Source of the DNA: Selenomonadaceae bacterium
GTDB taxonomy: Bacteria; Bacillota; Negativicutes; Selenomonadales; Selenomonadaceae
Reading direction: 5' to 3'
DNA length: 64,000 nt
NCBI GenBank assembly: GCA_017444295.1
Contig: JAFSWY010000172.1
Location: 7,548-71,547, forward strand
A model generated the notes under the pieces. The model was not told the origin of the DNA and ran no database searches. It saw only the letters and a program-made list of their open reading frames with translations. The translations under genes were made by a program, and so were the position numbers. Shown here in pieces: positions 1 through 44,098 of this stretch; positions within the stretch are counted from its first letter, which is position 1, and every line of letters starts with the position of its first letter.

Positions 1-1305
1 CGCCTTGGGGCAATCATGGATGATAAGGCCCTCCTTCTTGTAAGGCTCGGAAGGGGGGGCGGGTGGTGTGGGCGTAGGCGTATTTGTTGGGTCATTGCTG
101 GCATCGTAGATGCCAAGCGCAGGAGAACTATCCTTGGTGAAATAATAGGTTCCGTTGCCATCTGTGTCAATGCCCACATTATGGGAAGTATCCACGGAAA
201 CAAGTGTCCCGCTGGTGTATGTATAGTAATGGCTTCCGCCGGTATTGTTTGCCTGAGCGCTCTTGATTCCGTCGTACAATGCCTTCGCCAAATCGGATAC
301 ATTGGCAACATCAGCTATGCCGATGGTATATGCCTTTGCCTGGGGATTCGTTGTTGATGGATTGTTGTCATAAGTGGAAGCAGAGTTAGCTAGGCTGGCA
401 TCAAAGCGGAAATTCAGGAACTGATAACATGCACCGCAGAGAATAGAGAATCCCTGTTGGTTGAAATCCCCTACGGTGGGTGTGGAGCCATCTGTGGTAC
501 GCACTGCACCAGAAAAGTCAATCTTGACCTTCGTGCCGCCAGAGTAGGATTGCTGGGCAGTAGCATTGATAGGGCCGCCCCTGAACATCTGCCCCCCGGA
601 ACTTGTGCCTGTCATGGCAGAGAAGTTGGAGGCCAAATTTCTCACCGAAGTATTTTGCACCAAGCCGCTGGCGGTAGTGGCCGGTCCCGAGGCAGCCGTG
701 CTTGCCGCACTTGCAGCCGCCCAGTTCGCCCGATTGCTGGGCCGATAAACCCACACATCCTCAATGGGCAATTGGGTGGTGGTCATGCCATTGTAGAGTG
801 GCACAGTAAGCGACCCGTTGCTGTCCTTGTCCATGGGAAGCTGCACCGGGTCGGTGTACTTCATGGCATCCGGGGACTCATAGCGGCCGTCCAGAAGAAT
901 CTTCCCGTTGTAGCTGGTCTCCGAGGCGATGTCCTGGATGAGATCCATCCGCTTGTCGTATTCCTTTTGAAGGGTTGCCCGATCCGAGTCCGTGTTGTGG
1001 TCGTTCATGGCATTCAGGCACATTTCCTTCATGGAGCGAAGGTTGTTGATGATGGACTGGATGCCTCCCTCCGCCACGGCCACAAGGCTGTTCCCCGTCT
1101 GGACGTTTCGGATGTTCTGGTTCAGGGAACGAATCTGCACCCGCATCTTCTCGGAGATGGAGTACCCGCTGGCATTGTCCCCGGAGCTGTTGAAGTCCAT
1201 CCCCGTGGACACCTTTTTCAGCGACTTGGATAGGTTGCTGTTGTTCTGGTTCAAGGTGTTCAGGGCACTGTTCGCCGCAAGGTTGTTCCTCACCTTCATT
1301 GACAT
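1..1305 (-). CDS. fliC: Flagellin paralog 1, N-terminal 435 codons. The ORF runs off the left window edge, so it is absent from the ORF track.
   Basis: Manual translation from ATG at 1305 gives MSMKVRNNLAANSALNTLNQNNSNLSKSLKKVSTGM...SGYSISEKMRVQIRSLNQNIRNVQTG, a canonical flagellin D0/D1 N-terminus. It is collinear with the 1635-3344 flagellin, including the QQGFSILCGACYQF block. The frame stays open to position 1. Confidence 0.9.
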   Translation of the reverse strand, partial: MSMKVRNNLAANSALNTLNQNNSNLSKSLKKVSTGMDFNSSGDNASGYSISEKMRVQIRSLNQNIRNVQTGNSLVAVAEGGIQSIINNLRSMKEMCLNAMNDHNTDSDRATLQKEYDKRMDLIQDIASETSYNGKILLDGRYESPDAMKYTDPVQLPMDKDSNGSLTVPLYNGMTTTQLPIEDVWVYRPSNRANWAAASAASTAASGPATTASGLVQNTSVRNLASNFSAMTGTSSGGQMFRGGPINATAQQSYSGGTKVKIDFSGAVRTTDGSTPTVGDFNQQGFSILCGACYQFLNFRFDASLANSASTYDNNPSTTNPQAKAYTIGIADVANVSDLAKALYDGIKSAQANNTGGSHYYTYTSGTLVSVDTSHNVGIDTDGNGTYYFTKDSSPALGIYDASNDPTNTPTPTPPAPPSEPYKKEGLIIHDCPKA

Positions 1306-1503
1306 GACCCGTCACCTTCTTTCGCAAAAAGCGCGGAACCGCAAACCCGGGACGGCCATGCCCTCCCCCAACGAAAACATGACTGTACGCTTCCCCGCAC
1401 AGTCTCCCCCGATACTTTTGTCCTCATGATGTCCACTCCCTTGGTGTTCTACCCTTCCTGTTTGGGCAATATTCTCCTTTTGGGTATATATATCGCTAAT
1501 CAT

Positions 1504-1530
1504 ATATCGTCATTTTTCAGAAAAAATTAA
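1504..1530 (-). promoter_or_regulatory. Sigma28 (FliA/SigD)-type promoter for flagellin paralog 1
   Basis: On the minus strand: TTAA, 17 nt, CGATAT. This matches the TAAA-N15-GCCGATAT class and the same architecture upstream of the other two flagellin genes. Confidence 0.5.
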
Positions 1531-1589
1531 GCGATTTTTACTGTATACTTTGCAATCCCTCGCAGAGGAACAGGAAACCGCAGGAGCGC

Positions 1590-1615
1590 AAAAAAACCTC
1601 CCCGCAGAGGGGAGG
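1590..1615 (-). terminator. Intrinsic terminator after flagellin paralog 2
   Basis: Minus strand: CCTCCCC-TCTG-CGGGGAGG hairpin followed by TTTTTTT, about 20 nt after the stop at 1635. Confidence 0.75.
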
Positions 1616-1634
1616 CATTGCGCCCGGGAAATTC

Positions 1635-3344
1635 CTATTGCAACAAGTCCAGCACGCCGCCCACGTTCTGGTTGGCCTGGGACAGCATGGACTGTGCCGT
1701 CTGGGAAAGGACGTTGTTCTTCGTATAGGTCATCATTTCCTTTGCCATGTCCGCATCCTGCATGGTGGACTCCGCGCTCTGGGTGTTCTCCTGGTCTATC
1801 ACCAGATTGTCCTCGGTGAAGCCGAGGCGGGAACGGTAGGCTCCCATGCGGGTGGCCTCGTTCAGGCTGTACTCAATGGCAAAATTCACATAACCGAGGG
1901 AAAGCGCCGCCAACTCCCTCGGGGTTGTGGCCGTCCCCTCGATTTTCAGTGCCCGTGGGTGCATGCTGTTGATGTAGACAGGGAGGTACTGGTTCTGCTT
2001 GGGGCCGTGATGGATGATGAGGGGATTGCCCGGCTCGTCTTCCTCATCAGATGCCGCCTCCGGCTCCGGATCCGGTGGCAGAGCCCAAGGGGGCGTATTC
2101 TTGTCATAAGTGCCATCATCATTGATACCAAGAATAGGCGACGAATCTTTTGAAATATAGTACTTCCCCGTGGGGTTGCCCTGAGAATCTGTTTCTTTTA
2201 CAAGATTCACATTGTGTCGTTCATCGATGGATACCACTGTTGCCGAATCGGAACGCAATGTGTTTGGTCTGGAACCATTGGCTGTGGCATAATTCGTATG
2301 GCTTGCAGCAATTCCGTCAAAAAGCGCAGCTTCCAAGTCCGATTCGTTTGTAACACCTTGTATCCCGATGGTGTATTCCCTTGCCTGTGAGTTCTTAGTG
2401 GAATATGCGGGGTTGTATGTGGATGCAGAAGTTGCCAAATTGGCATCAAAACGAATATTGATGAATTGATAGCATGCACCGCAAAGAATGGAAAATCCCT
2501 GCTGGTCAAAGTCCGAAGGATAACTGGCTGCCGTACCGTTCACGTTAGCGGCAGAAAAATCCACATATACTCCGATGCCCCCGGAATAGGACGTTTTCGC
2601 CTCGATTCCCACCGCAGTATGGGCAAACCCGGGACCGGCGGTTGTGTAGTTCCTCCCCGAAAAATTTGTTGCCAAATCCGATATGGTGTTCTGTATTATG
2701 GATCCACTCGTACCGGATGTACCAGCAGTACTGGATGCACTTGAGGTAGATGTGGTATATACACTTCCCGCAGGATTCGCTGTCTTGTATTTCCACACCG
2801 ATGTCACCGGGTCATTGGTGTATTCCACATTGTACACCGGCAACAGGTTCCCGTACTTGTCCTCTTCCAAGGGCAGTTCCACCGGGGCCTCGTAGCGCAT
2901 GGACTTGGGAGAATAATACTGGCCGTTCAGCAGCCTTCGCCCGTTGTAGTCCGTTTCCGCCGCAATGTCCGTGATGGTTTCCATGCGCTTGGAATATTCC
3001 TTGTTCAAGGTGTCCCTGTCCTGATCCGAGTTATGATCGTTCATGGAGTTCAGGAGCATTTCCTTCATGGTGCGGAGATTGTCCAGCACCGACTGGATGC
3101 CGCCCTCCGCCACGGCAATGAGGTTGTTCCCCGTCTTGACGTTCTGCACGTCCTGCCCCAGGGCGCGAACCATGACCTCCATTTTCTTCCCGATGGCATA
3201 GCCCGAAGAATCATCTCCCGCCCCGGTAATCCTCATGCCGGAGGACACCTTCTTGAGGGATTTCGCCAGCGCGCTGTTGTTCGCGTTCAACGTGTTCAGT
3301 GTATTATTCGCCGAAAGATTGTTCTTTACCACCATGGGCATCAT
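1635..3344 (-). CDS. fliC: Flagellin paralog 2 (569 aa) with a large variable central domain
   Basis: N-terminus MMPMVVKNNLSANNTLNTLNANNSALAKSLKKVSSGMRITGAGDDSSGYAIGKKM. C-terminus ...MAKEMMTYTKNNVLSQTAQSMLSQANQNVGGVLDLLQ. Both are canonical flagellin N and C domains. Confidence 0.97.
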   Translation of the reverse strand: MMPMVVKNNLSANNTLNTLNANNSALAKSLKKVSSGMRITGAGDDSSGYAIGKKMEVMVRALGQDVQNVKTGNNLIAVAEGGIQSVLDNLRTMKEMLLNSMNDHNSDQDRDTLNKEYSKRMETITDIAAETDYNGRRLLNGQYYSPKSMRYEAPVELPLEEDKYGNLLPVYNVEYTNDPVTSVWKYKTANPAGSVYTTSTSSASSTAGTSGTSGSIIQNTISDLATNFSGRNYTTAGPGFAHTAVGIEAKTSYSGGIGVYVDFSAANVNGTAASYPSDFDQQGFSILCGACYQFINIRFDANLATSASTYNPAYSTKNSQAREYTIGIQGVTNESDLEAALFDGIAASHTNYATANGSRPNTLRSDSATVVSIDERHNVNLVKETDSQGNPTGKYYISKDSSPILGINDDGTYDKNTPPWALPPDPEPEAASDEEDEPGNPLIIHHGPKQNQYLPVYINSMHPRALKIEGTATTPRELAALSLGYVNFAIEYSLNEATRMGAYRSRLGFTEDNLVIDQENTQSAESTMQDADMAKEMMTYTKNNVLSQTAQSMLSQANQNVGGVLDLLQ

Positions 3345-3392
3345 CCATCAACTCCTTGTTGCAAAAATCTTTCTTTCCTGAAAAAATAGCAT

Positions 3393-3406
3393 ATCCTTTG
3401 CAATCC
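3393..3406 (-). promoter_or_regulatory. Conserved flagellin leader box GGATTGCAAAGGAT (candidate CsrA site)
   Basis: The same box, GGATTGC(A/G)A(A/G)GGAT, occurs in the flagellin-3 leader at 41252-41265. A related copy GGGATTGCAAAG lies at about 1548-1560. GGA is the core of CsrA sites. Confidence 0.35.
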
Positions 3407-3413
3407 AACAGAT

Positions 3414-3441
3414 ATATCGTCATTTTCATAAAAAACCTTAA
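3414..3441 (-). promoter_or_regulatory. Sigma28-type promoter for flagellin paralog 2
   Basis: Minus strand: TTAA, 18 nt, CGATAT, about 70 nt upstream of the ATG at 3344. Confidence 0.55.
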
Positions 3442-3595: not shown

Positions 3596-3924
3596 AAATA
3601 GAGGGAAACGACCAGCGAGCCGCCCGCAGGGCCTTGGAGGGCAGGCGGCAGCGGTAGCCGAAACAGGCTTCCCTCTGGTGTAGGCGAAAGGGCGGATGTC
3701 TATTGATGCTTGACGGACAGGGAACCCCTTCGGACTGACTGATGAGTGCCACCTGTGAAGCGAGAGGATGTCCATCGAGGCAGGGGCGCGGAAACGTGCC
3801 TGAGGCTATATGGAATCGTCATTTGCACCGTCATCAGGAGGAAAGAACAGAGACACGAGGTTTTCACGAATGCCAATCTACGGGTAGACCGGCTTGCAGC
3901 GGTGTTGCAAGCCGGTTTTATTTT
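3596..3924 (+). ncRNA. Candidate structured small RNA, about 330 nt, family unknown
   Basis: Bounded by the promoter above and a strong terminator. No ORF with a ribosome-binding site. Complementary segments: 3600-3607/3669-3676 (8 bp) and 3710-3719/3769-3778 (9 of 10 bp). Eleven GGA triplets, including two GGATGTC. Confidence 0.5.
3889..3924 (+). terminator. Intrinsic terminator of RNA gene 1. It probably also stops the convergent glycosyltransferase operon.
   Basis: CCGGCTTGCA-gcggtg-TTGCAAGCCGG hairpin followed by TTTTATTTT. It lies 7 nt from the stop codon at 3931 of the minus-strand gene. Confidence 0.8.
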
Positions 3925-3930
3925 GCCCCG

Positions 3931-5130
3931 TTATTCCCCGGCATCCCTCCGCACCCTTGGCTCCTTCCGCATCAGCTCGTCGATGGCCGCGATGACCTGC
4001 CGGGGGGAGATGCGCTTGGAGCATTCCAGCTCCCGTTCCGTCCCGTTGTGGTAGGGGCAGATTTTCGACTGGAAGCGGGTCCGTATGTCATTGAAGCATC
4101 CATGGCACACATGGCGGTTGAGAATCCGGTAAGGCGTGTAGAACTCGCACCATGGCTGCGACATGCCGCTGATGAGGATCACCGGGCACCCCACGGCATG
4201 GGCCAGCCAGGAAAGGCCACTGCCAAGGCCGATGAAGAAATCCGCATAGTAGAGCATGTTTGCCCTGTCCATGATGCTGCGGTCCCCCGTCATGTCCTCC
4301 GCGCTGTCCGGCATCAGTGTCTCATAGTTCAGCTCCCGCTGGTAGGCGTGGCGGTCAATGCAGATGACCCGGTACCCCAGAGCGTTCAAATAGTCGGAAA
4401 CGATATCCCATCCACGGGGATAATGCCATCCCTTCGACAAGGTGGAGGCCTGCACGGCAATGCAGACATATTTCCCCTTCACGACACGGGGCCGCGTGGG
4501 ATGGAACGGGGGCAGGGGCGCAGGCCCGTGAACCCCCACGATTTCCCCTGCCATCTCATCCATGGGAAATGTCCGGGTATCGATGGGCGCTCCCATCTTG
4601 GTGTCAAACCATGCCGCCAGATAAAAAATGGCATAGGTATCCTCGGGCGCCTTCTCCCCCAATTGCGGAATCCCCGGATACAAATGCTCCGCAAGCTCCC
4701 TCAGATACTCCCCCTCCAGCTTATAATAAACCTCGCAGTGATACTTTTCCTTGAAGGCCTGGGCATAGGGAAGGGCAGCCAACGTGTCCCCCATGGCTCC
4801 CCAGACACTGTAGAACACCACCGTCTGCCCTTCGGGATCGAAGACATGGGAAAACACCGGCTCGCCATCCTTTTTCACATCGACGGCCCACCGGACAAAA
4901 TACTTTTCCATGGAAATGAGCAGAATGTCCGACACATCCTCATCCAGGAACATGTCCTCCGTATCATGGTCATATATCGATACATGCCAGTTCCCTTCCG
5001 GAACCTGCAAGCGAAGCCCTTGCCGAAAATCCAGCCTCAGGCCCGGAATCCCCGTCTCGCCCTGTACCGGCCCGGCAAATGGTTCCCATTCCTTGAACAG
5101 GCTCATTTGTGACAGCCAACGCTTATCCAT
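3931..5130 (-). CDS. GT9-fold heptosyltransferase-like protein resembling the TibC/Aah (BAHT) autotransporter O-heptosyltransferases
   Basis: GT9-like block FFIGLGSGLSWLAHAVGCPVILISG. C-terminal four-Cys cluster HVCHGCFNDIRTRFQSKICPYHNGTERELEC. The start was moved to ATG 5130 (GGAGG 8 nt upstream); the track start at 5199 is a GTG. Confidence 0.6.
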   Translation of the reverse strand: MDKRWLSQMSLFKEWEPFAGPVQGETGIPGLRLDFRQGLRLQVPEGNWHVSIYDHDTEDMFLDEDVSDILLISMEKYFVRWAVDVKKDGEPVFSHVFDPEGQTVVFYSVWGAMGDTLAALPYAQAFKEKYHCEVYYKLEGEYLRELAEHLYPGIPQLGEKAPEDTYAIFYLAAWFDTKMGAPIDTRTFPMDEMAGEIVGVHGPAPLPPFHPTRPRVVKGKYVCIAVQASTLSKGWHYPRGWDIVSDYLNALGYRVICIDRHAYQRELNYETLMPDSAEDMTGDRSIMDRANMLYYADFFIGLGSGLSWLAHAVGCPVILISGMSQPWCEFYTPYRILNRHVCHGCFNDIRTRFQSKICPYHNGTERELECSKRISPRQVIAAIDELMRKEPRVRRDAGE

Positions 5131-5205
5131 AGGCATGTCCTCCGGGTTCCTGCAAGTGAAGTAGCGAATCTCTCCCACGAAACCTCCCCCTCTTCCCACG
5201 CCGGT

Positions 5206-5865
5206 TCAGGAATCCTCGTATTCCCTGACCCGGAGCGTGAGATTCCTCTCCTCGCAAATCTTTCGGCAACGGGCGATTTCCTCGGCATCCTCCACCCTGT
5301 CCACAACGGTCAGAACCACATGCGGCACATATTTCTTGCAGTGCTCCGCAAAGGTGAGCATTCCCTCGTAGGATGCAATGCCGTGCTTCGCCCGTGTGAG
5401 TTCCAGGTAGCGCTCCGCGTTAGAGGCGTTGAGGCTGATGGAGACGGTGTCCAGCACGCCCTCGTAGTCCGCGGCGATTTCCCGCCCGTATTCCAGCTCG
5501 CCGAGTCCGTTGGTGTTGAGCCGTGTCGCCATGCCCGGATGCCGTTCCTTCACATAGTGCAGAAGAGCTGCCAGAACATCCTGCCGCTGGGTTGGCTCGC
5601 CGAAGCCGCAGAACACGACCTCCTTGATGTATTCCCAGGGCACGCTGTCCAGCTCTCTTTCGATTTCCTCAAGGGACGGCTCCTTTTTCAGCCAGAGGGA
5701 GGATTCCTCCGCCATCTTCTTCATGTTGCGCAGGCAGAACACACAGGAACAGTTGCAGCGGTTCGTGATGTTGACGTAGAGGTTCCGCTTGCCCTCCGGC
5801 TGAATCTTGAGGCTTTCCTCCAAGGGCAGGTACTTTCCTCCCTTGTGTGTCGCATATACAATCAT
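5206..5865 (-). CDS. Small radical SAM enzyme (219 aa)
   Basis: CxxxCxxC motif within NITNRCNCSCVFC. GGE-like FCGFGEPT. TNG motif. AAGGAG ribosome-binding site 8 nt before the ATG at 5865. Confidence 0.8.
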   Translation of the reverse strand: MIVYATHKGGKYLPLEESLKIQPEGKRNLYVNITNRCNCSCVFCLRNMKKMAEESSLWLKKEPSLEEIERELDSVPWEYIKEVVFCGFGEPTQRQDVLAALLHYVKERHPGMATRLNTNGLGELEYGREIAADYEGVLDTVSISLNASNAERYLELTRAKHGIASYEGMLTFAEHCKKYVPHVVLTVVDRVEDAEEIARCRKICEERNLTLRVREYEDS

Positions 5866-6020
5866 TGGGACATCTCCTTTTCCATGGCTTCCACGGCCAT
5901 CCCGTACTGCTGCCAGAGTTCCGGGGAAACCTCATCCCTCATCGGCGCAAACGCCTGCCGAAGCCCGCAGAAATTGCGGCAGGCGCGCAGGCGCTTTTCT
6001 GCGGGCAGTTCCCGCCCGTA

Positions 6021-8591
6021 CTAATTCAGCAGGGCAAACCATTCCATCTGGTGCCAGAGGAGGTCGTTTGCCGCAAGAGGTGCGCCCGTTCGTTCGCAAA
6101 GCGGTTCCCCGATGATCCCCACAGCCCCGTCCCCGGCCCGGGCGAGCTGCTGCAAAAGATGCGCCCACATCACATAGGGCAGGGGCTTCCCGTCGAGGAA
6201 ACAGGGCCGCAGCCACCGGCATTCCTCCATCAGGGAACGGCACACCAATGCTCCGTTCATGCTTCCGGAAGGATATTTCCCCCTGCAAAGGAGTTCCTGC
6301 CAAAGGGATTCCGGGGAAACCATCCCGAAGACGGGATCCACCCGGACATCCGTGTACGGATCTGTCGGGGCAAATTCCCTCCTGCCGTCCGCAAACAGTA
6401 TCCCAAAGGAGAAATCCTGGGATTCCGTGCAGGCGACCATTTTCATAAGCTTGTCCTCCTGCATGGAATATCCTGGCAGCAGCCACTGCACATATTCCCC
6501 CGTTGCCTCCCGGGAAAGCTGCCGGAAAACATCCTCTCCGGACATATCGTCCAGGAAGCGGATGCCCTCCCGCAAACCTTCCGGCAGCTGCGCCTGTTCC
6601 GTCGATGCCCCAATACCACAGACAAAAATCTCCTTGAAGGGATATGTCTGGGTCATGGCAAGACCCAAATTCCTGCATAACTCCTCATCGTCACCCAAAT
6701 AAGGGATGGCAACCGTGACCCGCTTCCCCTGCCGCAAGACCTTTTCCTCAAGGTATGCCTCCGCAATGAGCACGCTTGCCCCCATGAGATTGCGCAGGAC
6801 ATCGGGCCGCACGTCCCCGCTGTAGCGCAGGGGGATTTCCTCGCAATAGGGCTTGAGGTCGAAGTCCATCGGCTCCTCGATGGCAGAGCCGGGCGAAACG
6901 GTCTCCCCCTTGCCCAGCTTCTCGTAGCAGGTCTTGAGATAGGAGGCCGTCGGCGTGTAAACGGAATACTTCGCCACGTTGTTGATCCAGCTCGTCGCCA
7001 CCTTTGCGGCATACTGCTCATCGCTGCGCCAATGGTAATGGGCCAGGTGCAGATCCGGCACAACGGTCCAGGGAACCTTCTCTCCCGTGGCCTCCCAGCA
7101 GGCATAATGGCAACCCTGCATGAGACGGAAGCCCGGTCGAAGCGCAATCTCCCCTCCCACAGCCAGCTTCTGCCCGGGGGCGAAGTCCCTGCTGCGCCTG
7201 CAGGGACGGGAGAGCAGGAACCTTCCTTCCTCCTCGTGCTGGCGAAGGGGCTCGTAGAGCCGCCATTCCAGCTTGTGCAATTCCTCCGGGGAAAGTCCCT
7301 CCAATACCTCCCTGCAGGATTTTTCGCTGTCGGTATTGACCAGAAACTCGTCTGCGTCCAGGGGCAGGACGAGGTCGGCATGATGCTCCCTCACGGCCTC
7401 CCGCAAAAGCTCGTTCATAACCTCTGCATGGGCAAGCTCCACAGGCCGGAGCATCCGAACGAAAACAGGCAGTCCCTCTGCCTGAAGATTTTCGAGAATC
7501 TCTCCCGTCTTGTCCGCGCTGCTGTGGTTGGCAATGATGATCTCGTCGGCAAAGGCCAGGCTATGGCGGACAAAGCTCTCGATGATGTCTGCCTCATTCT
7601 TCACCATGGAGACAACGACAATTTTCCGCCCGTTTTTTTCTCTTTCCTGCAAACAAACCGCTTCCCTTCCATCAAGAATGGCACGGATTCCATCCATGCA
7701 CTGCGCATAGGCGTCCCATGCGCCGCACTCCAGAAATTCCGGCATTCGGTACGGTTTCACCCGATCATACTCATCCCGCAAAAGGGCCAGAAGATGCGCA
7801 TAGTCCTCCCGGGTTTCCAGGAACACGCGCCTCCTGTAATACTCCGTGCCCAGTCGGAACCATTCCATCCTGCTTTGCAGGATCACGTCCTTCTGCTGCC
7901 CTTCCTGCTCCCCATGGCGGCGGTAGTAGCTCAAGGAATCGCGGAAAACCGCGCATTTCCCCTTTTCCAGCAGTTCCAGCCACATGGCAACATCCGAGAT
8001 CGTCCTGTAGCCTTTCGCCTCCGCACGCCAGTAATGATGTTGCAGGTCCCGCCTGCGAAAGAGCACTGCAGAAGGCTCGCCGATGTAGTTCCGCATGTCC
8101 CGCAGCATGCGCCGCCCAAGTTCTGCACCGTCGAACACCTGGCAGGTCTCTCCGTTTTCCAGCCCCAGAAAGGAAAGCTTCCCGACCTTGCTTCCCTCCC
8201 CGTCCATCACACCCCGCTGTGAGGTCACAAGCGTTATCCCCGGGTCCCGCTCAAAACATTCCACCATGAGCCGGAGCTTTTCCGGTTCCAGCACATCGTC
8301 ATCCATGAGCCATTGCAGATACTCGCCATGGGCCAAATCCTCAAAAGGCATGAAATTTTCTTCCTTGGTCATTGCCCTTCGGTTTCTCACGTACCGCACA
8401 CGGGAATCCCCGGCATATCCCTGCATCAGCTGCGCGGTCGCCTCGTCGCGGCTGTTGTCGCAGACGATGATCTCGACTTTGGGATAGGTCTGGGCCAGGG
8501 CGCTCCGCAAAGTCTTCTCAAACAACTTCGGGCGCTCATAGGTCGGTATCATAATGCTGACAAGCCCTTGTACGGTCTCCGCTGTAGACAT
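6021..8591 (-). CDS. Three-module glycosyltransferase (856 aa): N-terminal GT2, central GT2-like module, C-terminal GT2-like module
   Basis: N-terminal module: VSIMIPTYERPKLFEKTLRSALAQTYPKVEIIVCDNSRDE. Central module: KIVVVSMVKNEADIIESFVRHSLAFADEIIIANHSS. C-terminal module: VTVAIPYLGDDEELCRNLGLAMTQTYPFKEIFVCG. Confidence 0.8.
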   Translation of the reverse strand: MSTAETVQGLVSIMIPTYERPKLFEKTLRSALAQTYPKVEIIVCDNSRDEATAQLMQGYAGDSRVRYVRNRRAMTKEENFMPFEDLAHGEYLQWLMDDDVLEPEKLRLMVECFERDPGITLVTSQRGVMDGEGSKVGKLSFLGLENGETCQVFDGAELGRRMLRDMRNYIGEPSAVLFRRRDLQHHYWRAEAKGYRTISDVAMWLELLEKGKCAVFRDSLSYYRRHGEQEGQQKDVILQSRMEWFRLGTEYYRRRVFLETREDYAHLLALLRDEYDRVKPYRMPEFLECGAWDAYAQCMDGIRAILDGREAVCLQEREKNGRKIVVVSMVKNEADIIESFVRHSLAFADEIIIANHSSADKTGEILENLQAEGLPVFVRMLRPVELAHAEVMNELLREAVREHHADLVLPLDADEFLVNTDSEKSCREVLEGLSPEELHKLEWRLYEPLRQHEEEGRFLLSRPCRRSRDFAPGQKLAVGGEIALRPGFRLMQGCHYACWEATGEKVPWTVVPDLHLAHYHWRSDEQYAAKVATSWINNVAKYSVYTPTASYLKTCYEKLGKGETVSPGSAIEEPMDFDLKPYCEEIPLRYSGDVRPDVLRNLMGASVLIAEAYLEEKVLRQGKRVTVAIPYLGDDEELCRNLGLAMTQTYPFKEIFVCGIGASTEQAQLPEGLREGIRFLDDMSGEDVFRQLSREATGEYVQWLLPGYSMQEDKLMKMVACTESQDFSFGILFADGRREFAPTDPYTDVRVDPVFGMVSPESLWQELLCRGKYPSGSMNGALVCRSLMEECRWLRPCFLDGKPLPYVMWAHLLQQLARAGDGAVGIIGEPLCERTGAPLAANDLLWHQMEWFALLN

Positions 8592-39348: not shown

Positions 39349-39376
39349 GCGCCGAAAATTCCATTCCTCGCACGCG

Positions 39377-39407
39377 AAAAACGGTCGGCAACCGAAGCCG
39401 CCGACCG
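39377..39407 (-). terminator. Intrinsic terminator after flagellin 3
   Basis: Minus strand: CGGTCGGC-ggcttcggtt-GCCGACCG followed by TTTTT. Confidence 0.75.
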
Positions 39408-39420
39408 AAAATCATCTTCT

Positions 39421-41229
39421 TTATTGAAGCAAACTCAACACCGCAGAACTGTTCTGGTTCGCCTGGGAAAGCATGGACTGCGCCGACTGCAGGAGCACGT
39501 TGTTCTTCGTGTACTCCGTCATCTCCTTCGCCATGTCCGCATCGCGGATCGTGGACTCGGAATTCTGCACATTCTCCGCCGCCGTGGTCAGATTGCTTGC
39601 CGTGTACTCCAGACGGCTCTGGAGCGCACCGATGGTGGTCTGCTCATTGAGGGCCTTCCGCAGGGACTGGTCAAACAGGCGAATGGCATCATTAGCCTGC
39701 TCCCTGGTGGCAATGCTCACCTTCGTGCCATCAGCCGCCTCAAGCCCCATGGCCTTGGCCCGCATATCGTGGAACCCGAACTTGATGGACTGGTTGGCCT
39801 TGGTGCCCACCTGCAGAGTCAGATCCCCCACCTTGCCGCCGTAGTTCGATTCCCAATGGACGGTCAATCCGTCAATGATGGAGGTCTTGCTCTCCGGCGC
39901 ATACCAGAAGGTGGTGGAGCCTCCCTCCGGCACAACGCTGTCCTTGGTCTTCGCCATGCGCCTTCCGCTGGCATCGCTGCCCGTGATGGCACCGGTGTCA
40001 TCGTTGGTCAAGTCAATACCGCAACAATTCAGCAAAAATTCATCATCTGTTGCCGCCGCTGCCGCATCTGCCTTAAACTGTGTTATTAATCCCGTCCACG
40101 TGGAGAACTTCCCCCCCGTTGCAGCACTGACAGCACCATCCAACGCACTGGCTCCATGATGCACCAACACGTTCATGAAATTCTTCATGGCATCTTCCCC
40201 GCCTTGATTTGCCATATAGCGGAGAGCCATATATCCTCCTGTATAATAGATTGTTGTCCCTGTCCCTGTCGAGGTGAAATCCGATAGGGACGCACCATTG
40301 ACAGCAGCTCTCGTCAATCCACTCTTTTGCTCATCATCAATACCATGCACCAGTTCAGCCATGCCCTCTGCGATAGCCCCTGGAAGTGTCCCGAAATTAT
40401 TGATTGACGAGGCCATAATCGCATGAACCATTTCATGGGCAATCGTACGATCCAAAGTTCCCCCTATAAGCTGGCTCGAATTGTTTGGATCTGGAATAAA
40501 TGCCGTTCCATTTACATTGGACGTGTCATGTATATCCAGATTCTTAAAGAATCTCATATTCACCGTGAGGTCAAGCGAATTCGTCCTGCCATTTGAACCA
40601 CCATTATTGAAGGACACCCATGCCAATGCATTCGCCTGATTACCGGACGTGACCTCTTCAAGCTTTACATTGATATCCTTGCAATCCGCCCATTCATTCC
40701 TGAAGCTGACCCCATAGGACTGCTCAATCAAGTCCAGTGCATTCTCCAGCCATTCGGTGCTCAGCGCACTGACAATCATGTCCTGCACCGTCTCGTTTTG
40801 GATTCCCGTCTGTCCGTCCAGGAGATACTTGCCGTTGTACTGCACCAAGGCATTGTCGTCCACCTGCTGGACGTACTGGTTCACTTCCTTCTGCATGATG
40901 GCGCGGTCCTCGTCCGTATTGTGGTCGTTGGCGGAGTCCAGCGCCTTCTCCTTGAGGGTCCGAAGGATGTCCACCGTAGAGGACACGGCCCCTTCCGCCA
41001 CCTTCAACAGTGCCGTGCCATTCTGCGTGTTGCGGATGTCCTGTTCCAGCCCGCGAAGCTGGACGCGCATCTTCTCCGAGATGGAGTAGCCCGAGGCATC
41101 ATCCCCCGCGCCGTTGATGCGCATGCCAGAAGAGACCTTCTTGAGGCTCTTGGAGAGGGCATTCGAGTTCTCGTTCAACTGGTTCAGCGTATTCACCGCC
41201 GACATATTGTTCTTTACCACCATTGCCAT
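39421..41229 (-). CDS. fliC: Flagellin (602 aa) with a zincin metalloprotease-like module in the variable region (flagellinolysin-type)
   Basis: Canonical flagellin ends: MAMVVKNNMSAVNTLNQLNENSNALSKSLKKVSSGMRINGAGDDASGYSISEKM at the N-terminus and MAKEMTEYTKNNVLLQSAQSMLSQANQNSSAVLSLLQ at the C-terminus. The central domain contains HEMVH (aa 265-269, nt 40423-40437) followed by AEGMAE 19-23 aa later. Confidence 0.9.
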   Translation of the reverse strand: MAMVVKNNMSAVNTLNQLNENSNALSKSLKKVSSGMRINGAGDDASGYSISEKMRVQLRGLEQDIRNTQNGTALLKVAEGAVSSTVDILRTLKEKALDSANDHNTDEDRAIMQKEVNQYVQQVDDNALVQYNGKYLLDGQTGIQNETVQDMIVSALSTEWLENALDLIEQSYGVSFRNEWADCKDINVKLEEVTSGNQANALAWVSFNNGGSNGRTNSLDLTVNMRFFKNLDIHDTSNVNGTAFIPDPNNSSQLIGGTLDRTIAHEMVHAIMASSINNFGTLPGAIAEGMAELVHGIDDEQKSGLTRAAVNGASLSDFTSTGTGTTIYYTGGYMALRYMANQGGEDAMKNFMNVLVHHGASALDGAVSAATGGKFSTWTGLITQFKADAAAAATDDEFLLNCCGIDLTNDDTGAITGSDASGRRMAKTKDSVVPEGGSTTFWYAPESKTSIIDGLTVHWESNYGGKVGDLTLQVGTKANQSIKFGFHDMRAKAMGLEAADGTKVSIATREQANDAIRLFDQSLRKALNEQTTIGALQSRLEYTASNLTTAAENVQNSESTIRDADMAKEMTEYTKNNVLLQSAQSMLSQANQNSSAVLSLLQ

Positions 41230-41273
41230 GGCTCATCGCTCCTTCGTTAAAATCCTCGCAATCCTTTTTTAAT

Positions 41274-41301
41274 ATATCGTAGAAAAGATAAAAAAACTTA
41301 A
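41274..41301 (-). promoter_or_regulatory. Sigma28-type promoter for flagellin 3
   Basis: Minus strand: TTAA, 18 nt, CGATAT, then the leader box GGATTGCGAGGAT (41252-41265) and the ribosome-binding site GAAGGAG. Confidence 0.55.
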
Positions 41302-42229: not shown

Positions 42230-44008
42230 CTATTCATTCTTTTCTGGAGTTTTGGGTTCAACGATACTCACATGATTCTTCCCTTGATGCTTTTTGGCAT
42301 CATACAGTGCCCCATCCGCGCGGCTGAAGAGGCTCGCAGCATCATCCTCCGATGTCGCCTCGGTAACGCCAATGCTCGTGGTGATATGCTTCCCGTCCGG
42401 CAGGAAGTCCACTCCTGATACGTTTTGACGCACACGTTCGGCAATCTTGGCTGCGGCATTCACATCAATCCCTGCGAGAATGACGAAAAATTCATCCCCG
42501 CCCCAGCGTCCCGGCGCATCCATACGCCTGGTATTCTTGCGGAGCACATCCGCCACGAGTTTCAGCGCCTCATCCCCAACGGCATGCCCATAATTGTCAT
42601 TGATTCCCTTGAAATTGTCAATATCCATCATGATGACCGACAAGGGCTGCCGGGATACCTTGGAAATCTCCAGGGAACGCTCCAATACCGCTTCCAGCTC
42701 GCCACGGTTCAGCAATGCCGTCAGGCGGTCCATCTGCGCCAGCTGTGCCAATCCCTGGTTCACGGTCTCCAGTTCCTGGGAAGTCGCCTTGATGAAATGC
42801 ACCATATGCCGCATGACATGTGTCTGCCAGCTGAACTTCGTCCGAGTGGGCGGCAGTGGATCCGCGAGCTTCTCCGTGGGCTCGCCTTCCCGCATGCCCA
42901 AAAGCTCCAATGTCATATTGGAGATGAAAAGCTCCTTCCCCTCGCGGCGAAGTTCGCCAAAGGAATAGAACCCCGAAAAGGGGGCGAGTTCACGGCAGGC
43001 ATCCATCTCCGCACCGATATCCGCACCGAGCAGGAACCATCTCGCCACACAGCTTGTCAGGAAAATCCCCTGGGGACGGAACAGCCGCATCTTCTTCCGC
43101 AGTGCACGAGCCTTCTCGAGAATGCCCTCCGGGTCGCCATAGGCAAAATGCAGGTGATCCCCCACCCGGATATTTGCATTGAACACCACGGCACCATCAC
43201 TGCGGCAGCTGCGGGGATGCCTTGCCAGCGTCTTTTCCCCGCGCTCGAAGTAAACGGGAAAGGTCAGTGCCTCCCAGGAAAAGTCCTCGTTGTTCTTGAT
43301 GCCCAGATATTTTTCATAGGCCTTTATGGCCGGAGCATTGTCGATCTCCGTAACGACGCAGGAACCGTCCATTCCCGTGACAACCATATCCCTGCCCAGG
43401 ATTTCCCATCCAAAGCTCTCCAGGGAATTCACATGCAGATCTTTTCCACGCAAAACAAGGGCTGCCACTCCGGAGGTTATGACATCATCCGCTGTAAAGA
43501 CACACCCTTGATGTCCCAAATAGTCCTCATCGGTCATGCCGCCGAAAAACTGGATTTCTTTGGGAGCCTCTGACAGTTTCTCCAGGATGTCCAATATGTT
43601 CAGGCTGCTGTCTACGAGCAGCAAGCCCACTGCCTTGACATCTTCCATTCCCCGCAGGCGCTCCAACAGGGACTGCCCGATTTCCCCGCTGCTCAGGAAG
43701 CGGCTCGGAAATGCCACCACCTCTGCGCTGGCTTCCTCAAAGAGGCTAAAGGACACAGAAACACCCTGCTCAATAATGAAGTCATCTGCAACACTCAGTG
43801 CTGTAAATCCTCCAATGATGTGCGCATCCGGCAGGAACCCATGGAGCTTCTGCACCATGTCCTCCATGTTCACACGCTTCACCTTCGTGCCGAACACGGT
43901 AACGAGAATCGAGGAAATCACAGGAATCTTTGCCATTTTCCGGCTGGCATCCTGCAGCATATCCATAAACTCGTCATTGGTCCTCACCACATACGACAGT
44001 TGTTTCAT
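42230..44008 (-). CDS. FIST-N/FIST-C sensor diguanylate cyclase
   Basis: Intact GGDEF (RWGGDEFFVIL) and DNFKGINDNYGHAVGDEALK. The N-terminal two thirds are FIST-like. The start was trimmed to ATG 44008 (AAGGAGG upstream). Confidence 0.85.
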   Translation of the reverse strand: MKQLSYVVRTNDEFMDMLQDASRKMAKIPVISSILVTVFGTKVKRVNMEDMVQKLHGFLPDAHIIGGFTALSVADDFIIEQGVSVSFSLFEEASAEVVAFPSRFLSSGEIGQSLLERLRGMEDVKAVGLLLVDSSLNILDILEKLSEAPKEIQFFGGMTDEDYLGHQGCVFTADDVITSGVAALVLRGKDLHVNSLESFGWEILGRDMVVTGMDGSCVVTEIDNAPAIKAYEKYLGIKNNEDFSWEALTFPVYFERGEKTLARHPRSCRSDGAVVFNANIRVGDHLHFAYGDPEGILEKARALRKKMRLFRPQGIFLTSCVARWFLLGADIGAEMDACRELAPFSGFYSFGELRREGKELFISNMTLELLGMREGEPTEKLADPLPPTRTKFSWQTHVMRHMVHFIKATSQELETVNQGLAQLAQMDRLTALLNRGELEAVLERSLEISKVSRQPLSVIMMDIDNFKGINDNYGHAVGDEALKLVADVLRKNTRRMDAPGRWGGDEFFVILAGIDVNAAAKIAERVRQNVSGVDFLPDGKHITTSIGVTEATSEDDAASLFSRADGALYDAKKHQGKNHVSIVEPKTPEKNE

Positions 44009-44098
44009 TTCGTCACCTCCTTGTCTTTGCAAGCAAAAGAGTCTCACAGGTATCTTATCACAACACAAAAATATGTCAAGATTGCCCAATCTATAAGC

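What the first reader, a model, noticed from the sequence alone, without database searches (positions are those of the whole stretch)
39820..40812. Flagellin whose hypervariable region carries an HExxH...E zincin module (proteolytic flagellin type)
The 602-aa protein has textbook flagellin D0/D1 termini. Its ~330-aa insert contains TLDRTIAHEMVHAIMASS (HEMVH at nt 40423-40437) followed 19-23 residues later by AEGMAELVHG. That is the gluzincin arrangement of two His plus a downstream Glu.

A family of enzymatically active metalloprotease flagellins (flagellinolysin, first characterised in a Clostridium) is established knowledge. This looks like a member in a Negativicute-like genome. It coexists with two non-protease flagellins 36 kb away and has its own sigma28 promoter and terminator.

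The insert also contains an unusual CC pair (LLNCCGIDLTNDDTGAITGSDA). By eye the insert has lower GC than the flanking D0/D1-coding parts, which suggests domain acquisition.
Basis: partly seen in the sequence, partly recalled or inferred. Interest (0 to 1): 0.68.

Follow-up and report, generated by a model that had tools for sequence, protein, structure and literature searches.

The report
Protease-carrying flagellin (flagellinolysin) in Selenomonadaceae
This gene encodes a flagellum-filament protein with a zinc protease domain built into its surface-exposed middle; it belongs to the known "flagellinolysin" family, whose members in this bacterial group were already catalogued, so it is a correct but ordinary find.

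Summary
ORF 39421..41229 (-) encodes a 602-aa flagellin with intact D0/D1 ends. Its 331-aa insert (aa 140-470) carries HEMVH at nt 40423-40437 and AEGMAELVHG 19-23 residues later.

- NCBI's curated flagellinolysin equivalog model NF033876 matches colinearly at 276 bits (cut-off 205).
- The catalytic residues are invariant against canonical flagellinolysins.
- A confident AlphaFold model (pLDDT 85, pTM 0.88) matches only gluzincin peptidases (M30, M1, M9) in the PDB.
- A σ28-like promoter occurs only at the three flagellin genes in the window, and a strong terminator follows the gene.

Two side arguments fail. The GC dip is shared by the variable regions of all three flagellins. Only one Cys of the "CC" pair is conserved.

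The family (MEROPS M101) has been known since 2017, and Selenomonas and Anaerovibrio members were in the original supplementary table. This is a new member of a known kind.

Noticed in passing: in Selenomonadaceae the same protease module also occurs in circularly permuted order. It is found that way inside other flagellins and at the N-terminus of many non-flagellin proteins, often giant and rich in RTX-like repeats. I found no paper describing this.

The parts
41274..41301 (-). σ28/SigD-like promoter, TTAAG-N16-ACGATAT, about 45-70 nt upstream of the start codon
   Evidence: Sequence read. The pattern TTAAN{16,17}ACGATAT has exactly 3 hits in 64 kb, one upstream of each of the three flagellin genes, against 0.02 expected by chance. 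The three upstream regions align over it. Function is inferred from similarity to the TAAA-N15-GCCGATAA class of promoters, recalled from established knowledge.
41239..41244 (-). Ribosome-binding site AAGGAG, 9 nt before the ATG
   Evidence: Read directly from the sequence.
39421..41229 (-). Flagellinolysin-type flagellin gene, 602 aa plus stop codon
   Evidence: ORF listed. NF033876 flagellinolysin scores 276.1 bits against a cut-off of 205.
40813..41229 (-). N-terminal D0/D1 flagellin region (aa 1-139)
   Evidence: Pfam Flagellin_N covers aa 5-140, E = 1.8e-33. PDB flagellins match aa 3-149.
40174..40812 (-). Protease 'core' of the insert (aa 140-352): a long helix, a β-sheet, the HExxH helix, the Glu helix and further helices
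   Evidence: AlphaFold model, with pLDDT mostly above 90 in this part. Foldseek matches M30, M1 and M9 gluzincins. Conserved in all relatives.
40423..40437 (-). HEMVH (H265, E266, H269): two zinc ligands and the general-base Glu
   Evidence: Coordinates. Invariant in alignments A1, A2, A4 and A5. Residue roles are assigned by homology to FliA(H) His233/Glu234/His237 (PMC5595980).
40336..40368 (-). E288-G-M-A291-E292-L-V-H295-G296-I-D298: third zinc ligand (E288) and hydrophobic 'basement' Ala (A291)
   Evidence: E288, G289, A291, E292, H295, G296 and D298 are invariant. The E-x-x-A pattern matches Glu262/Ala265 of FliA(H). The weak Pfam Peptidase_M9 match starts here.
40219..40245 (-). Y329-TGG-Y333-ALR337: conserved Tyr/Arg helix; candidate for the transition-state-stabilising Tyr
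   Evidence: Y329 and R337 are invariant and Y333 nearly so. The role is inferred by analogy with gluzincins; the lugdulysin entry 7bb9 in the hit list is an E242Q Y315F mutant.
39820..40173 (-). 'Tail' of the insert (aa 353-470): four helices, an Asp/Gly-rich loop and a β-hairpin that leads back into D1
   Evidence: Model elements H213-269 and E315-324. Covered by the NF033876 profile. This is the part that precedes the core in the permuted relatives.
39973..39999 (-). D411-T-G-A-I-T-G417-S-D419: invariant Asp/Gly loop; possible metal-binding site
   Evidence: D411, T412, G413, A414, G417 and D419 are invariant across Selenomonad and canonical flagellinolysins. Model confidence here is only 58-73. 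Function is speculative.
39424..39819 (-). C-terminal D1/D0 flagellin region (aa 471-602)
   Evidence: Pfam Flagellin_C covers aa 520-601, E = 4.4e-21. PDB flagellins match aa 470-601.
39374..39407 (-). Intrinsic terminator: 11-bp stem (8 G-C pairs), 4-nt loop, then a T-run; begins 14 nt after the stop codon
   Evidence: Terminator scan and sequence.
1635..3344 (-). Second flagellin, 569 aa, with no protease motif; same promoter type at 3414..3441
   Evidence: Flagellin_N and Flagellin_C only. No HExxH. Promoter hit.
1..1305 (-). Third flagellin; N-terminal 435 aa visible, the rest runs off the window; same promoter type at 1504..1530
   Evidence: Translation. Start position. Promoter hit.

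Best explanation
The gene encodes a flagellinolysin, a proteolytic flagellin of MEROPS family M101, from a bacterium of the family Selenomonadaceae.

Shown here: the protein has complete D0/D1 termini and a 331-aa insert. That insert is homologous over its whole length, and in the same order, to the hypervariable-region protease of characterised flagellinolysins. All catalytic motifs are intact, and the predicted fold is a gluzincin fold.

Inferred mechanism:
1. The gene is transcribed from its own σ28-type promoter, together with the two ordinary flagellin genes.
2. The protein is exported unfolded through the flagellar type III channel.
3. D0/D1 polymerise into the filament alongside the other flagellins.
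4. The insert folds on the filament surface into a zinc metalloprotease. Zn is held by H265, H269 and E288, E266 acts as the general base, and A291 sits under the metal.
5. The filament thereby becomes an array of extracellular protease sites that cleave peptides or proteins in the surroundings.

The biological purpose (nutrition, attack on biofilm matrix or on other cells' flagella) is unknown.
For: - Family membership: NF033876 'flagellinolysin' equivalog, E = 6.2e-82, 276.1 bits against a cut-off of 205, one stretch, aa 113-533 matching profile 2-384/384.
- Flagellin ends: Flagellin_N and Flagellin_C are well above Pfam thresholds. The D0/D1 regions align with flagellins from solved filament structures.
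- Catalytic residues: H265, E266, H269, A270, M272, E288, G289, A291, E292, H295, G296, D298, Y329 and R337 are invariant against canonical flagellinolysins from Bacillus and Proteobacteria.
- Motif roles: they match those defined and mutated in FliA(H), namely HExxH, Glu262 and Ala265, with E234A abolishing activity and EDTA inhibiting it (PMC5595980).
- Structure: AlphaFold model with pLDDT 85 and pTM 0.88. Its listed PDB matches with Foldseek probability of at least 0.5 are all gluzincins: lugdulysin M30 (E = 8.7e-4, probability 1.0), M1 aminopeptidases and ColG/ColT/ColH M9 peptidase domains.
- Expression signals: the promoter motif occurs only at the three flagellin genes, with 0.02 expected by chance. 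A strong terminator follows the gene.
- Precedent for co-assembly: co-occurrence with other flagellins mirrors C. haemolyticum, where flagellinolysin is a filament component alongside a structural flagellin.
- Selection: HExxH is retained in all complete flagellin relatives found and in 141 of 143 top profile hits.
Against: - No biochemical data exist for this protein or for any Selenomonad member.
- It is a divergent member: the insert is only about 30-33% identical to canonical flagellinolysins. Its NF033876 score (276) is well below theirs (370-439).
- The position aligned with the first Asp of the canonical 'IDMxDF' segment is probably the Ca2+-site Asp206 of FliA(H). Here, and throughout the Selenomonad clade, it is Asn (N224).
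- Structural similarity to solved gluzincins is distant (TM 0.35-0.44).
- The gene is not in a flagellar operon. It lies between an aminotransferase gene and a TauE-family gene, so co-assembly with the other flagellins is an inference.
Confidence: 0.82

Rival explanations
1. The protein is an active protease but does not act as a filament subunit. It would be exported through the flagellar apparatus and released into the medium, or incorporated only in trace amounts, so the flagellum serves merely as its secretion route.
For: The gene is solitary and lies far from the other flagellin genes and their glycosylation genes. The same module is common in clearly non-flagellar proteins of the same bacterial family, which are probably secreted. 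That shows it works without a filament scaffold.
Against: D0/D1 are complete and 58-78% identical to those of other Selenomonad flagellinolysin-type flagellins. The promoter is the same type as for the two ordinary flagellins. In C. haemolyticum the homologue was shown on filaments by immunogold labelling and mass spectrometry (PMC5595980).
Confidence: 0.1
2. The insert is a catalytically inactive gluzincin-like domain that serves as a structural, adhesive or antigenic surface decoration of the filament.
For: The putative Ca2+-site Asp is replaced by Asn. Calcium was reported as needed for full activity in the related collagenases. The insert is highly diverged from the characterised enzymes.
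Against: Every catalytic residue is invariant across more than 60 relatives at only 26-59% overall identity. These include both His, the general-base Glu, the third-ligand Glu, the basement Ala and the conserved Tyr. That is the signature of selection for catalysis. Asn can still ligate Ca2+ through its side-chain oxygen.
Confidence: 0.06
3. The HExxH...E arrangement is a chance motif in an ordinary hypervariable region.
For: HExxH is short and occurs by chance in many proteins.
Against: The expected count in this protein is 0.007. The whole 331-aa insert matches a curated family profile at E = 6e-82. The predicted fold is a gluzincin fold.
Confidence: 0.005

Closest known systems
Flagellinolysin FliA(H) of Clostridium haemolyticum (MEROPS M101; Eckhard et al. 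2017, PMC5595980)
   Same: Same architecture: D0/D1, then protease core, then tail, then D1/D0. It shares HExxH, the downstream E-x-x-A third-ligand and basement motif, and the conserved DTGAI-G-D loop. It likewise co-occurs with non-protease flagellins. The window protein is recognised by the same curated model, NF033876.
   Different: The insert is only about 30-33% identical to canonical members. The loop between HExxH and the third-ligand Glu is shorter (19 residues against 25). Asn replaces the probable Ca2+-site Asp. An extra β-hairpin (aa ~242-258) sits just before the active-site helix. The host is a diderm Firmicute of the Selenomonadaceae.
HgrFlaMP of Hylemonella gracilis (PMC7643111)
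   Same: A proteolytic flagellin of the same family in a Gram-negative-type cell envelope, also encoded alongside other flagellins.
   Different: It is from a betaproteobacterium and belongs to the canonical clade, which is separate from the whole Selenomonad group in the core-domain tree.
Selenomonas ruminantium, S. bovis and Anaerovibrio metallopeptidase flagellins listed in Supplementary Table 2 of Eckhard et al. 2017
   Same: Same bacterial family and same flagellin family, for example the colinear flagellin of S. ruminantium ATCC 12561 (locus L007, 591 aa, NF033876 298 bits).
   Different: The protease core is only 35-44% identical to these. The window protein groups instead with four unnamed metagenomic proteins, P0001-P0004, at 49-56% insert identity.
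Clostridial collagenase peptidase domain (MEROPS M9; ColG, ColH, ColT)
   Same: Gluzincin fold with HExxH plus a downstream Glu. There is a weak Pfam Peptidase_M9 match at aa 287-347 and Foldseek matches at TM about 0.39.
   Different: The Pfam score is 18.3 bits, below the gathering score of 26. Identity in the structural alignments is about 10-13%. Flagellinolysins are classed as a separate family and did not cleave collagen.
Lugdulysin (MEROPS M30, PDB 7bb8)
   Same: It is the best structural match (E = 8.7e-4, probability 1.0).
   Different: Only 14% identity and TM 0.42. It is a secreted staphylococcal protease, not a flagellin insert.

Membership tests
Flagellinolysin / proteolytic flagellin (MEROPS M101; NCBIfam NF033876) | Complete flagellin N- and C-terminal D0/D1 regions | tested here: met
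   PF00669 covers aa 5-140 (115.9 bits) and PF00700 covers aa 520-601 (75.4 bits). Both regions align with flagellins from solved filament structures.
Flagellinolysin / proteolytic flagellin (MEROPS M101; NCBIfam NF033876) | Hypervariable-region insert homologous to the family, above the curated equivalog cut-off | tested here: met
   NF033876 scores 276.1 bits against a cut-off of 205, in one colinear stretch over profile positions 2-384/384. Canonical members score 370-439.
Flagellinolysin / proteolytic flagellin (MEROPS M101; NCBIfam NF033876) | HExxH with two zinc-binding His and the general-base Glu | tested here: met
   H265, E266 and H269 are invariant in all alignments.
Flagellinolysin / proteolytic flagellin (MEROPS M101; NCBIfam NF033876) | Third zinc-ligand Glu and the hydrophobic basement Ala three residues later (Glu262/Ala265 in FliA(H)) | tested here: met
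   E288 and A291 are invariant. The motif definition comes from PMC5595980.
Flagellinolysin / proteolytic flagellin (MEROPS M101; NCBIfam NF033876) | Gluzincin (thermolysin/M9-like) fold around the motif | tested here: met
   Predicted only. The AlphaFold model has pLDDT 85 and pTM 0.88. All listed Foldseek matches with probability of at least 0.5 are gluzincins. No experimental structure exists.
Flagellinolysin / proteolytic flagellin (MEROPS M101; NCBIfam NF033876) | Ca2+-site acidic residue near the active site (Asp206 in FliA(H)) | tested here: inconclusive
   The position aligned with the first Asp of canonical 'IDMxDF' is N224, and it is invariant Asn across the Selenomonad clade. I could not align FliA(H) itself, so the equivalence is uncertain.
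Flagellinolysin / proteolytic flagellin (MEROPS M101; NCBIfam NF033876) | Absence of the collagenase double-glycine specificity motif | not tested
Flagellinolysin / proteolytic flagellin (MEROPS M101; NCBIfam NF033876) | Metal-dependent peptidase activity, lost on mutating the catalytic Glu | not testable with these tools
   Requires biochemistry: an assay with and without EDTA or 1,10-phenanthroline, and an E266A mutant.
Flagellinolysin / proteolytic flagellin (MEROPS M101; NCBIfam NF033876) | Incorporation into the flagellar filament with the protease exposed on its surface | not testable with these tools
   Requires filament purification with mass spectrometry, immunogold labelling or cryo-EM.
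Peptidase M9 (bacterial collagenase) | Match to Pfam PF01752 at or above the gathering score | tested here: not met
   18.3 bits against a gathering score of 26, covering only aa 287-347. The fold is related but the protein is not a family member.
Flagellar hook-associated protein FlgL | Match to TIGR02550 at or above its cut-off | tested here: not met
   94.4 bits against a cut-off of 127.2.

The most novel reading that the evidence does not exclude
The window protein belongs to a large radiation of the flagellinolysin protease module in Selenomonadaceae that appears not to have been described. In this radiation the same two-part domain (core plus tail) occurs in several forms:
(a) the canonical order inside flagellins;
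(b) circularly permuted (tail then core) inside other complete flagellins, sometimes in adjacent genes of one genome;
(c) at the N-terminus of hundreds of non-flagellin proteins, many of them giant proteins with RTX-like repeats;
(d) as tandem tail-core-tail-core proteins, the classical intermediate for permutation by duplication.

If real and new, this gives the first free-standing relatives of the flagellin protease insert. It would make the open question of where that insert came from, or went to, directly testable.
Probability: 0.45. Interest if true: 0.5.

Novelty: new member of a known kind. Interest (0 to 1): 0.3.

Why it matters
For the finding itself, little changes. It adds one more uncharacterised member to a family of enzymatic flagellins that was described in 2017 and is already captured by a curated annotation model. 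The member comes from a bacterial family that the original paper already listed.

It is still a useful member to know about. No flagellinolysin from a diderm Firmicute or from a gut or rumen anaerobe has been characterised, and this clade is only about 30% identical to the studied enzymes.

The wider pattern seen around it is worth a short follow-up. It consists of permuted inserts, stand-alone forms and forms fused to RTX-like repeats. It bears on how a protease became part of a flagellar filament, a point that Eckhard et al. left as undetermined.

Tried and rejected
- **PDB sequence search, insert alone:** no hit even at E = 10, so no solved flagellinolysin is available for comparison.
- **Look-up of the window protein's source contig:** not on record. 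The organism was therefore inferred from a cluster mate at 90% or more identity, named 'Selenomonadaceae bacterium', and from the taxonomy of relatives.
- **Genome scan:** the window's own genome is not among the GTDB representatives. The best core identity was 44%.
- **GC as evidence of domain acquisition: rejected as specific evidence.** GC3 is 0.81-0.85 in the N-terminal D0/D1 of all three flagellin genes and 0.55-0.60 in all three variable regions. The protease core's GC3 (0.52) is lower than in any other gene I measured (0.59-0.82). Transfer from a lower-GC relative remains possible but unproven.
- **'CC pair' as a notable feature: rejected.** C403 is a clade-conserved single Cys and C402 is unique to this protein.
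- **A 'tail-core-Flagellin_C without N-terminus' class (P0013, P0014): rejected as probable truncated gene calls.** They nest within the permuted flagellins in the tree, and P0014 starts at a Met that is internal in the S. ruminantium protein.
- **P0005 (tail-core-tail-Flagellin_C):** it comes from a single 2.6-kb metagenomic contig and could be an assembly chimera, so it was not used as evidence.
- **Exhaustive profile search totals (36,480 / 25,419 / 6,555): not usable as a family size.** The profile absorbed flagellin D0/D1 columns. Only the top 150 hits were classified.
- **Foldseek on the permuted stand-alone model:** no significant hits.
- **Synteny with the closest relative P0001:** none was evident.
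- **Literature searches for a description of permuted or non-flagellin homologues:** nothing was found. The library does not include most subscription journals.
Full report
**1. The observation**

The minus-strand ORF 39421..41229 encodes a 602-aa protein. A direct computation places:
- HEMVH at aa 265-269, nt 40423-40437;
- TLDRTIAHEMVHAIMASS at aa 258-275;
- AEGMAELVHG at aa 287-296;
- the CC pair at aa 402-403.

The finding's coordinates 39820-40812 correspond to aa 140-470. HExxH alone would be expected 0.007 times in a protein of this composition. The decisive statistics come from the profile matches described next.

**2. What it is**

Pfam finds Flagellin_N (aa 5-140, E = 1.8e-33) and Flagellin_C (aa 520-601, E = 4.4e-21). 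It also finds a sub-threshold Peptidase_M9 match at aa 287-347 (18.3 bits against a gathering score of 26).

NCBI's curated equivalog model NF033876, 'flagellinolysin', matches aa 113-533. The match is one colinear stretch over profile positions 2-384 of 384, at E = 6.2e-82 and 276.1 bits, above its cut-off of 205.

Sequence searches of the PDB hit only flagellin D0/D1 regions. The insert alone hits nothing, so no solved flagellinolysin structure was found.

I aligned the protein with canonical flagellinolysins from Bacillus and Proteobacteria, which are 33-34% identical overall. The following residues are invariant:
- in the core: H265, E266, H269, A270, M272, E288, G289, A291, E292, H295, G296, D298, Y329 and R337;
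- in the tail loop: D411, T412, G413, A414, G417 and D419.

Eckhard et al. (PMC5595980) defined the family's motifs in FliA(H) as His233/Glu234/His237, the third zinc ligand Glu262, and the basement Ala265. By that E-x-x-A pattern, the third ligand here is E288 and the basement residue is A291.

An AlphaFold2 model of aa 135-480, built on 63 sequences, is confident (mean pLDDT 85, pTM 0.88). Its listed PDB matches with Foldseek probability of at least 0.5 are all gluzincin peptidases:
- lugdulysin, family M30 (E = 8.7e-4, probability 1.0);
- M1 aminopeptidases;
- the peptidase domains of collagenases G, T and H, family M9.

TM-scores are 0.35-0.44 and identity is 10-15%, so the fold is clearly gluzincin but distant from anything solved.

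**3. Surroundings and expression**

An AAGGAG ribosome-binding site lies 9 nt before the ATG. Upstream of it is TTAAG-N16-ACGATAT.

The pattern TTAAN{16,17}ACGATAT occurs exactly three times in the 64-kb window, against 0.02 expected by chance. Each hit lies upstream of one of the three flagellin genes (alignment). This supports a shared σ28/SigD-type promoter. The pattern was derived from these same sites, so the exclusivity is the informative part.

A hairpin with an 11-bp stem (8 G-C pairs) and a T-run follows the stop codon.

The gene is monocistronic. It lies between a class-V aminotransferase gene and a TauE-family gene, with a FIST-GGDEF gene beyond that and the mraW/mur cell-wall cluster on the other side.

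The two other flagellins are at 1635..3344 (-), 569 aa, and at 1..1305 (-), cut by the window edge. Neither has HExxH.

The flagellinolysin's D0/D1 are 57% (N-terminal) and 47% (C-terminal) identical to those of the 569-aa paralogue. They are 58-78% identical to the D0/D1 of flagellinolysin-type flagellins in other Selenomonadaceae. The whole gene therefore belongs to an older lineage. It is not a recent insertion of a protease into a resident flagellin.

**4. Organism**

The protein is in NCBI nr on a 71.7-kb contig. Its cluster mate at 90% or more identity is named 'flagellin, partial [Selenomonadaceae bacterium]'.

A scan of one genome per species found at least 433 stretches encoding relatives of the protease core. 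All but two of the top 80 come from Selenomonadaceae and related Negativicutes, mostly from the rumen and gut; the two exceptions are MAGs labelled Acidaminococcaceae and Thermoguttaceae. The named taxa are Selenomonas ruminantium, S. bovis, Anaerovibrio lipolyticus, Schwartzia succinivorans and Quinella. None exceeded 44% identity to the window's core.

The closest relatives are four unnamed metagenomic flagellins, P0001-P0004, with 49-56% identity in the insert.

**5.

The GC dip is real: 0.508 in the insert against 0.58-0.59 in the flanks. At third codon positions, however, all three flagellin genes show the same pattern:
- N-terminal D0/D1: GC3 of 0.81-0.85 in all three;
- variable regions: GC3 of 0.55-0.60 in all three.

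The dip is therefore a general property of flagellin variable regions in this genome. It is not specific evidence for acquisition of the protease. The core's GC3 of 0.52 is the lowest I measured, so transfer from a lower-GC relative remains possible.

For the CC pair, C403 is a single Cys conserved within the Selenomonad clade. C402 is unique to this protein, and canonical members have no Cys there.

**6. How it most likely works**

Shown: family membership by sequence, intact catalytic motifs, a predicted gluzincin fold, and flagellin-type expression signals.

Inferred from the characterised homologues: σ28-dependent expression, export through the flagellar channel, co-polymerisation with the other flagellins through D0/D1, and folding of the insert on the filament surface into a zinc endopeptidase. 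In that enzyme Zn would be bound by H265, H269 and E288, with E266 as the general base.

The insert departs from the canonical enzymes in four ways:
- It is only about 30-33% identical to canonical inserts.
- It has a shorter HExxH-to-Glu spacer (19 residues against 25).
- It has Asn (N224) where canonical members have the first Asp of 'IDMxDF', which is probably the Ca2+-site residue.
- It has an extra β-hairpin just before the active-site helix.

Rival readings are given in the rivals section. They are a secreted rather than polymerised protease, an inactive decoration, and a chance motif. The evidence disfavours all three.

**7. Comparison with what is known**

The family is MEROPS M101. 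It was discovered by Eckhard et al. in 2017, with 86 sequences from 74 species. By 2020 it had been extended to 265 sequences in 194 species (PMC7643111).

Supplementary Table 2 of the 2017 paper already lists Selenomonas bovis, S. ruminantium, Selenomonas sp. ND2010, Anaerovibrio sp. RM50 and A. lipolyticus. The occurrence in Negativicutes is therefore already on record.

The window protein is a new and rather divergent member of a known kind. It is not a new variant.

**8. Noticed in passing: permuted and non-flagellin forms of the same module**

I split the insert into a 'core' (aa 140-352, the catalytic part) and a 'tail' (aa 353-470: four helices, the DTGAITGSD loop and a β-hairpin). Segment-wise BLAST then shows that about 50 of the 77 database relatives have the order tail then core, and lack flagellin ends.

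Architectures among the 80 genomic loci:

| Architecture | Count |
|---|---|
| Colinear flagellins (N-core-tail-C) | 18 |
| Complete flagellins in permuted order (N-tail-core-C) | 23 |
| Non-flagellin tail-core proteins (368 to 2435 aa) | 30 |

S. ruminantium ATCC 12561 has both flagellin types in adjacent genes.

The giant proteins carry the module at their extreme N-terminus, followed by 6-17 GGxGxD-type repeats. The sampled stand-alone and giant proteins that begin with the module (MA..Q..IK.F-type starts) show no signal-peptide-like hydrophobic stretch. This suggests type I secretion, which is an inference.

NF033876 scores the permuted flagellins above its cut-off, but in three separate stretches (225-244 bits). 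It scores the stand-alone forms below the cut-off (159-197 bits).

An AlphaFold model of the stand-alone protein P0007 is confident (residues 1-311 mostly above pLDDT 90, pTM 0.83). It has the same secondary-structure elements as the window insert, in cyclically shifted order.

Foldseek finds gluzincins for the colinear model but nothing significant for the permuted one. This weakly suggests that core-then-tail is the native gluzincin topology.

Architectures among the top 143 new hits of an exhaustive profile search:

| Architecture | Count |
|---|---|
| Non-flagellin tail-core | 104 |
| Colinear flagellins (19 N-core-tail-C, 8 N-core-C) | 27 |
| Permuted flagellins | 4 |
| Tandem tail-core-tail-core (the classical route to circular permutation) | 4 |

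Of these 143 proteins, 81 have at least three RTX-like repeats and 141 keep HExxH.

A neighbour-joining tree without support values puts canonical flagellinolysins in their own clade. All Selenomonad forms fall together, and the window protein groups with P0001-P0004.

I found no paper mentioning permutation, RTX fusion or non-flagellin homologues, but the searchable library is incomplete.

Three caveats apply. I could not superimpose the models. Some odd architectures (P0013, P0014, P0005) are probably truncated gene calls or assembly chimeras. The tree is only rough.

**9. Verdict**

Confidence that this is a flagellinolysin-family member is about 0.97. Confidence in the full mechanism, an active protease displayed on the filament, is about 0.8.

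Novelty: a new member of a known kind. Interest: 0.3. The side observation is the part that might repay further work.

Noticed in passing
Loci L008, L012, L013, L016, L055 and L007 (gene starting at locus nt 3651), compared with window 39820-40812: Twenty-three of the 80 related genomic loci encode complete flagellins whose protease insert is in the opposite order (tail then core) from the window protein and from canonical flagellinolysins. S. ruminantium ATCC 12561 has both orders in adjacent genes. AlphaFold models of the two orders contain the same secondary-structure elements, cyclically shifted. This looks like circular permutation of one domain, and I found no description of it in the literature.
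   Followed up: partly
Proteins P0007-P0055; loci L021, L028, L035, L043 and L060: Hundreds of non-flagellin proteins, mostly from Selenomonadaceae, carry the tail-core protease module at their N-terminus. Those sampled that begin with the module show no signal-peptide-like N-terminus. Many are giant (1,000-2,400 aa) with 6-17 GGxGxD RTX-like repeats, which suggests type I secretion. They appear to be the first free-standing relatives of the flagellinolysin insert.
   Followed up: partly
Proteins P0082, P0085, P0087 and P0105: These proteins have a tandem tail-core-tail-core arrangement, the classical intermediate for circular permutation by duplication and truncation. They have not been checked for assembly artefacts.
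   Followed up: no
window 3931-8591 (-): Three genes lie directly upstream of the two non-protease flagellin genes: a TibC-like heptosyltransferase (PF21129 TibC_1st, E = 2e-14, plus GT9; 422 aa with a Cys-rich C-terminus), a radical-SAM protein, and an 856-aa double GT2 glycosyltransferase. This is probably a flagellin-glycosylation island. A TibC-type (autotransporter heptosyltransferase) enzyme next to flagellins is unusual.
   Followed up: partly
window 1-3344 (-); also locus L014 (1005-aa flagellin): The variable regions of the two non-protease flagellins share an unannotated domain with a conserved 'QQGFSILCGACYQF(I/L)N(I/F)RFDA' segment, and Pfam finds nothing there. A closely similar segment ('QGITILCGGCEQYINIVFDKD') appears together with a tail-core protease module in ~1000-aa Selenomonadaceae flagellins such as that of L014.
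   Followed up: no
window 41230-41273 (-) and 3345-3413 (-): The 5' leaders of the flagellinolysin gene and the 569-aa flagellin gene both contain closely spaced GGA motifs (GGATTGCGAGGAT and GGATTGCAAAGGAT) plus the GGAG of the ribosome-binding site. This is reminiscent of the CsrA binding sites in the Bacillus subtilis hag leader. That comparison is from memory and was not tested.
   Followed up: no
window 39421-41229 (-), codons ~160-400: Third-position GC falls from about 0.85 to 0.43-0.60 between codons ~160 and ~400, and returns to 0.75-0.85 from codon ~401. That point is in the middle of the 'tail', not at the boundary between the insert and D1. This could mark an old recombination boundary or simply weaker codon selection.
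   Followed up: partly
window 42230-44089 (-); locus L081 2542-4443: A GGDEF diguanylate cyclase gene lies near the flagellinolysin gene both in the window (FIST-GGDEF, 619 aa) and in the contig of the closest relative P0001 (GGDEF, 633 aa). Otherwise the two neighbourhoods differ. This may be coincidence.
   Followed up: no
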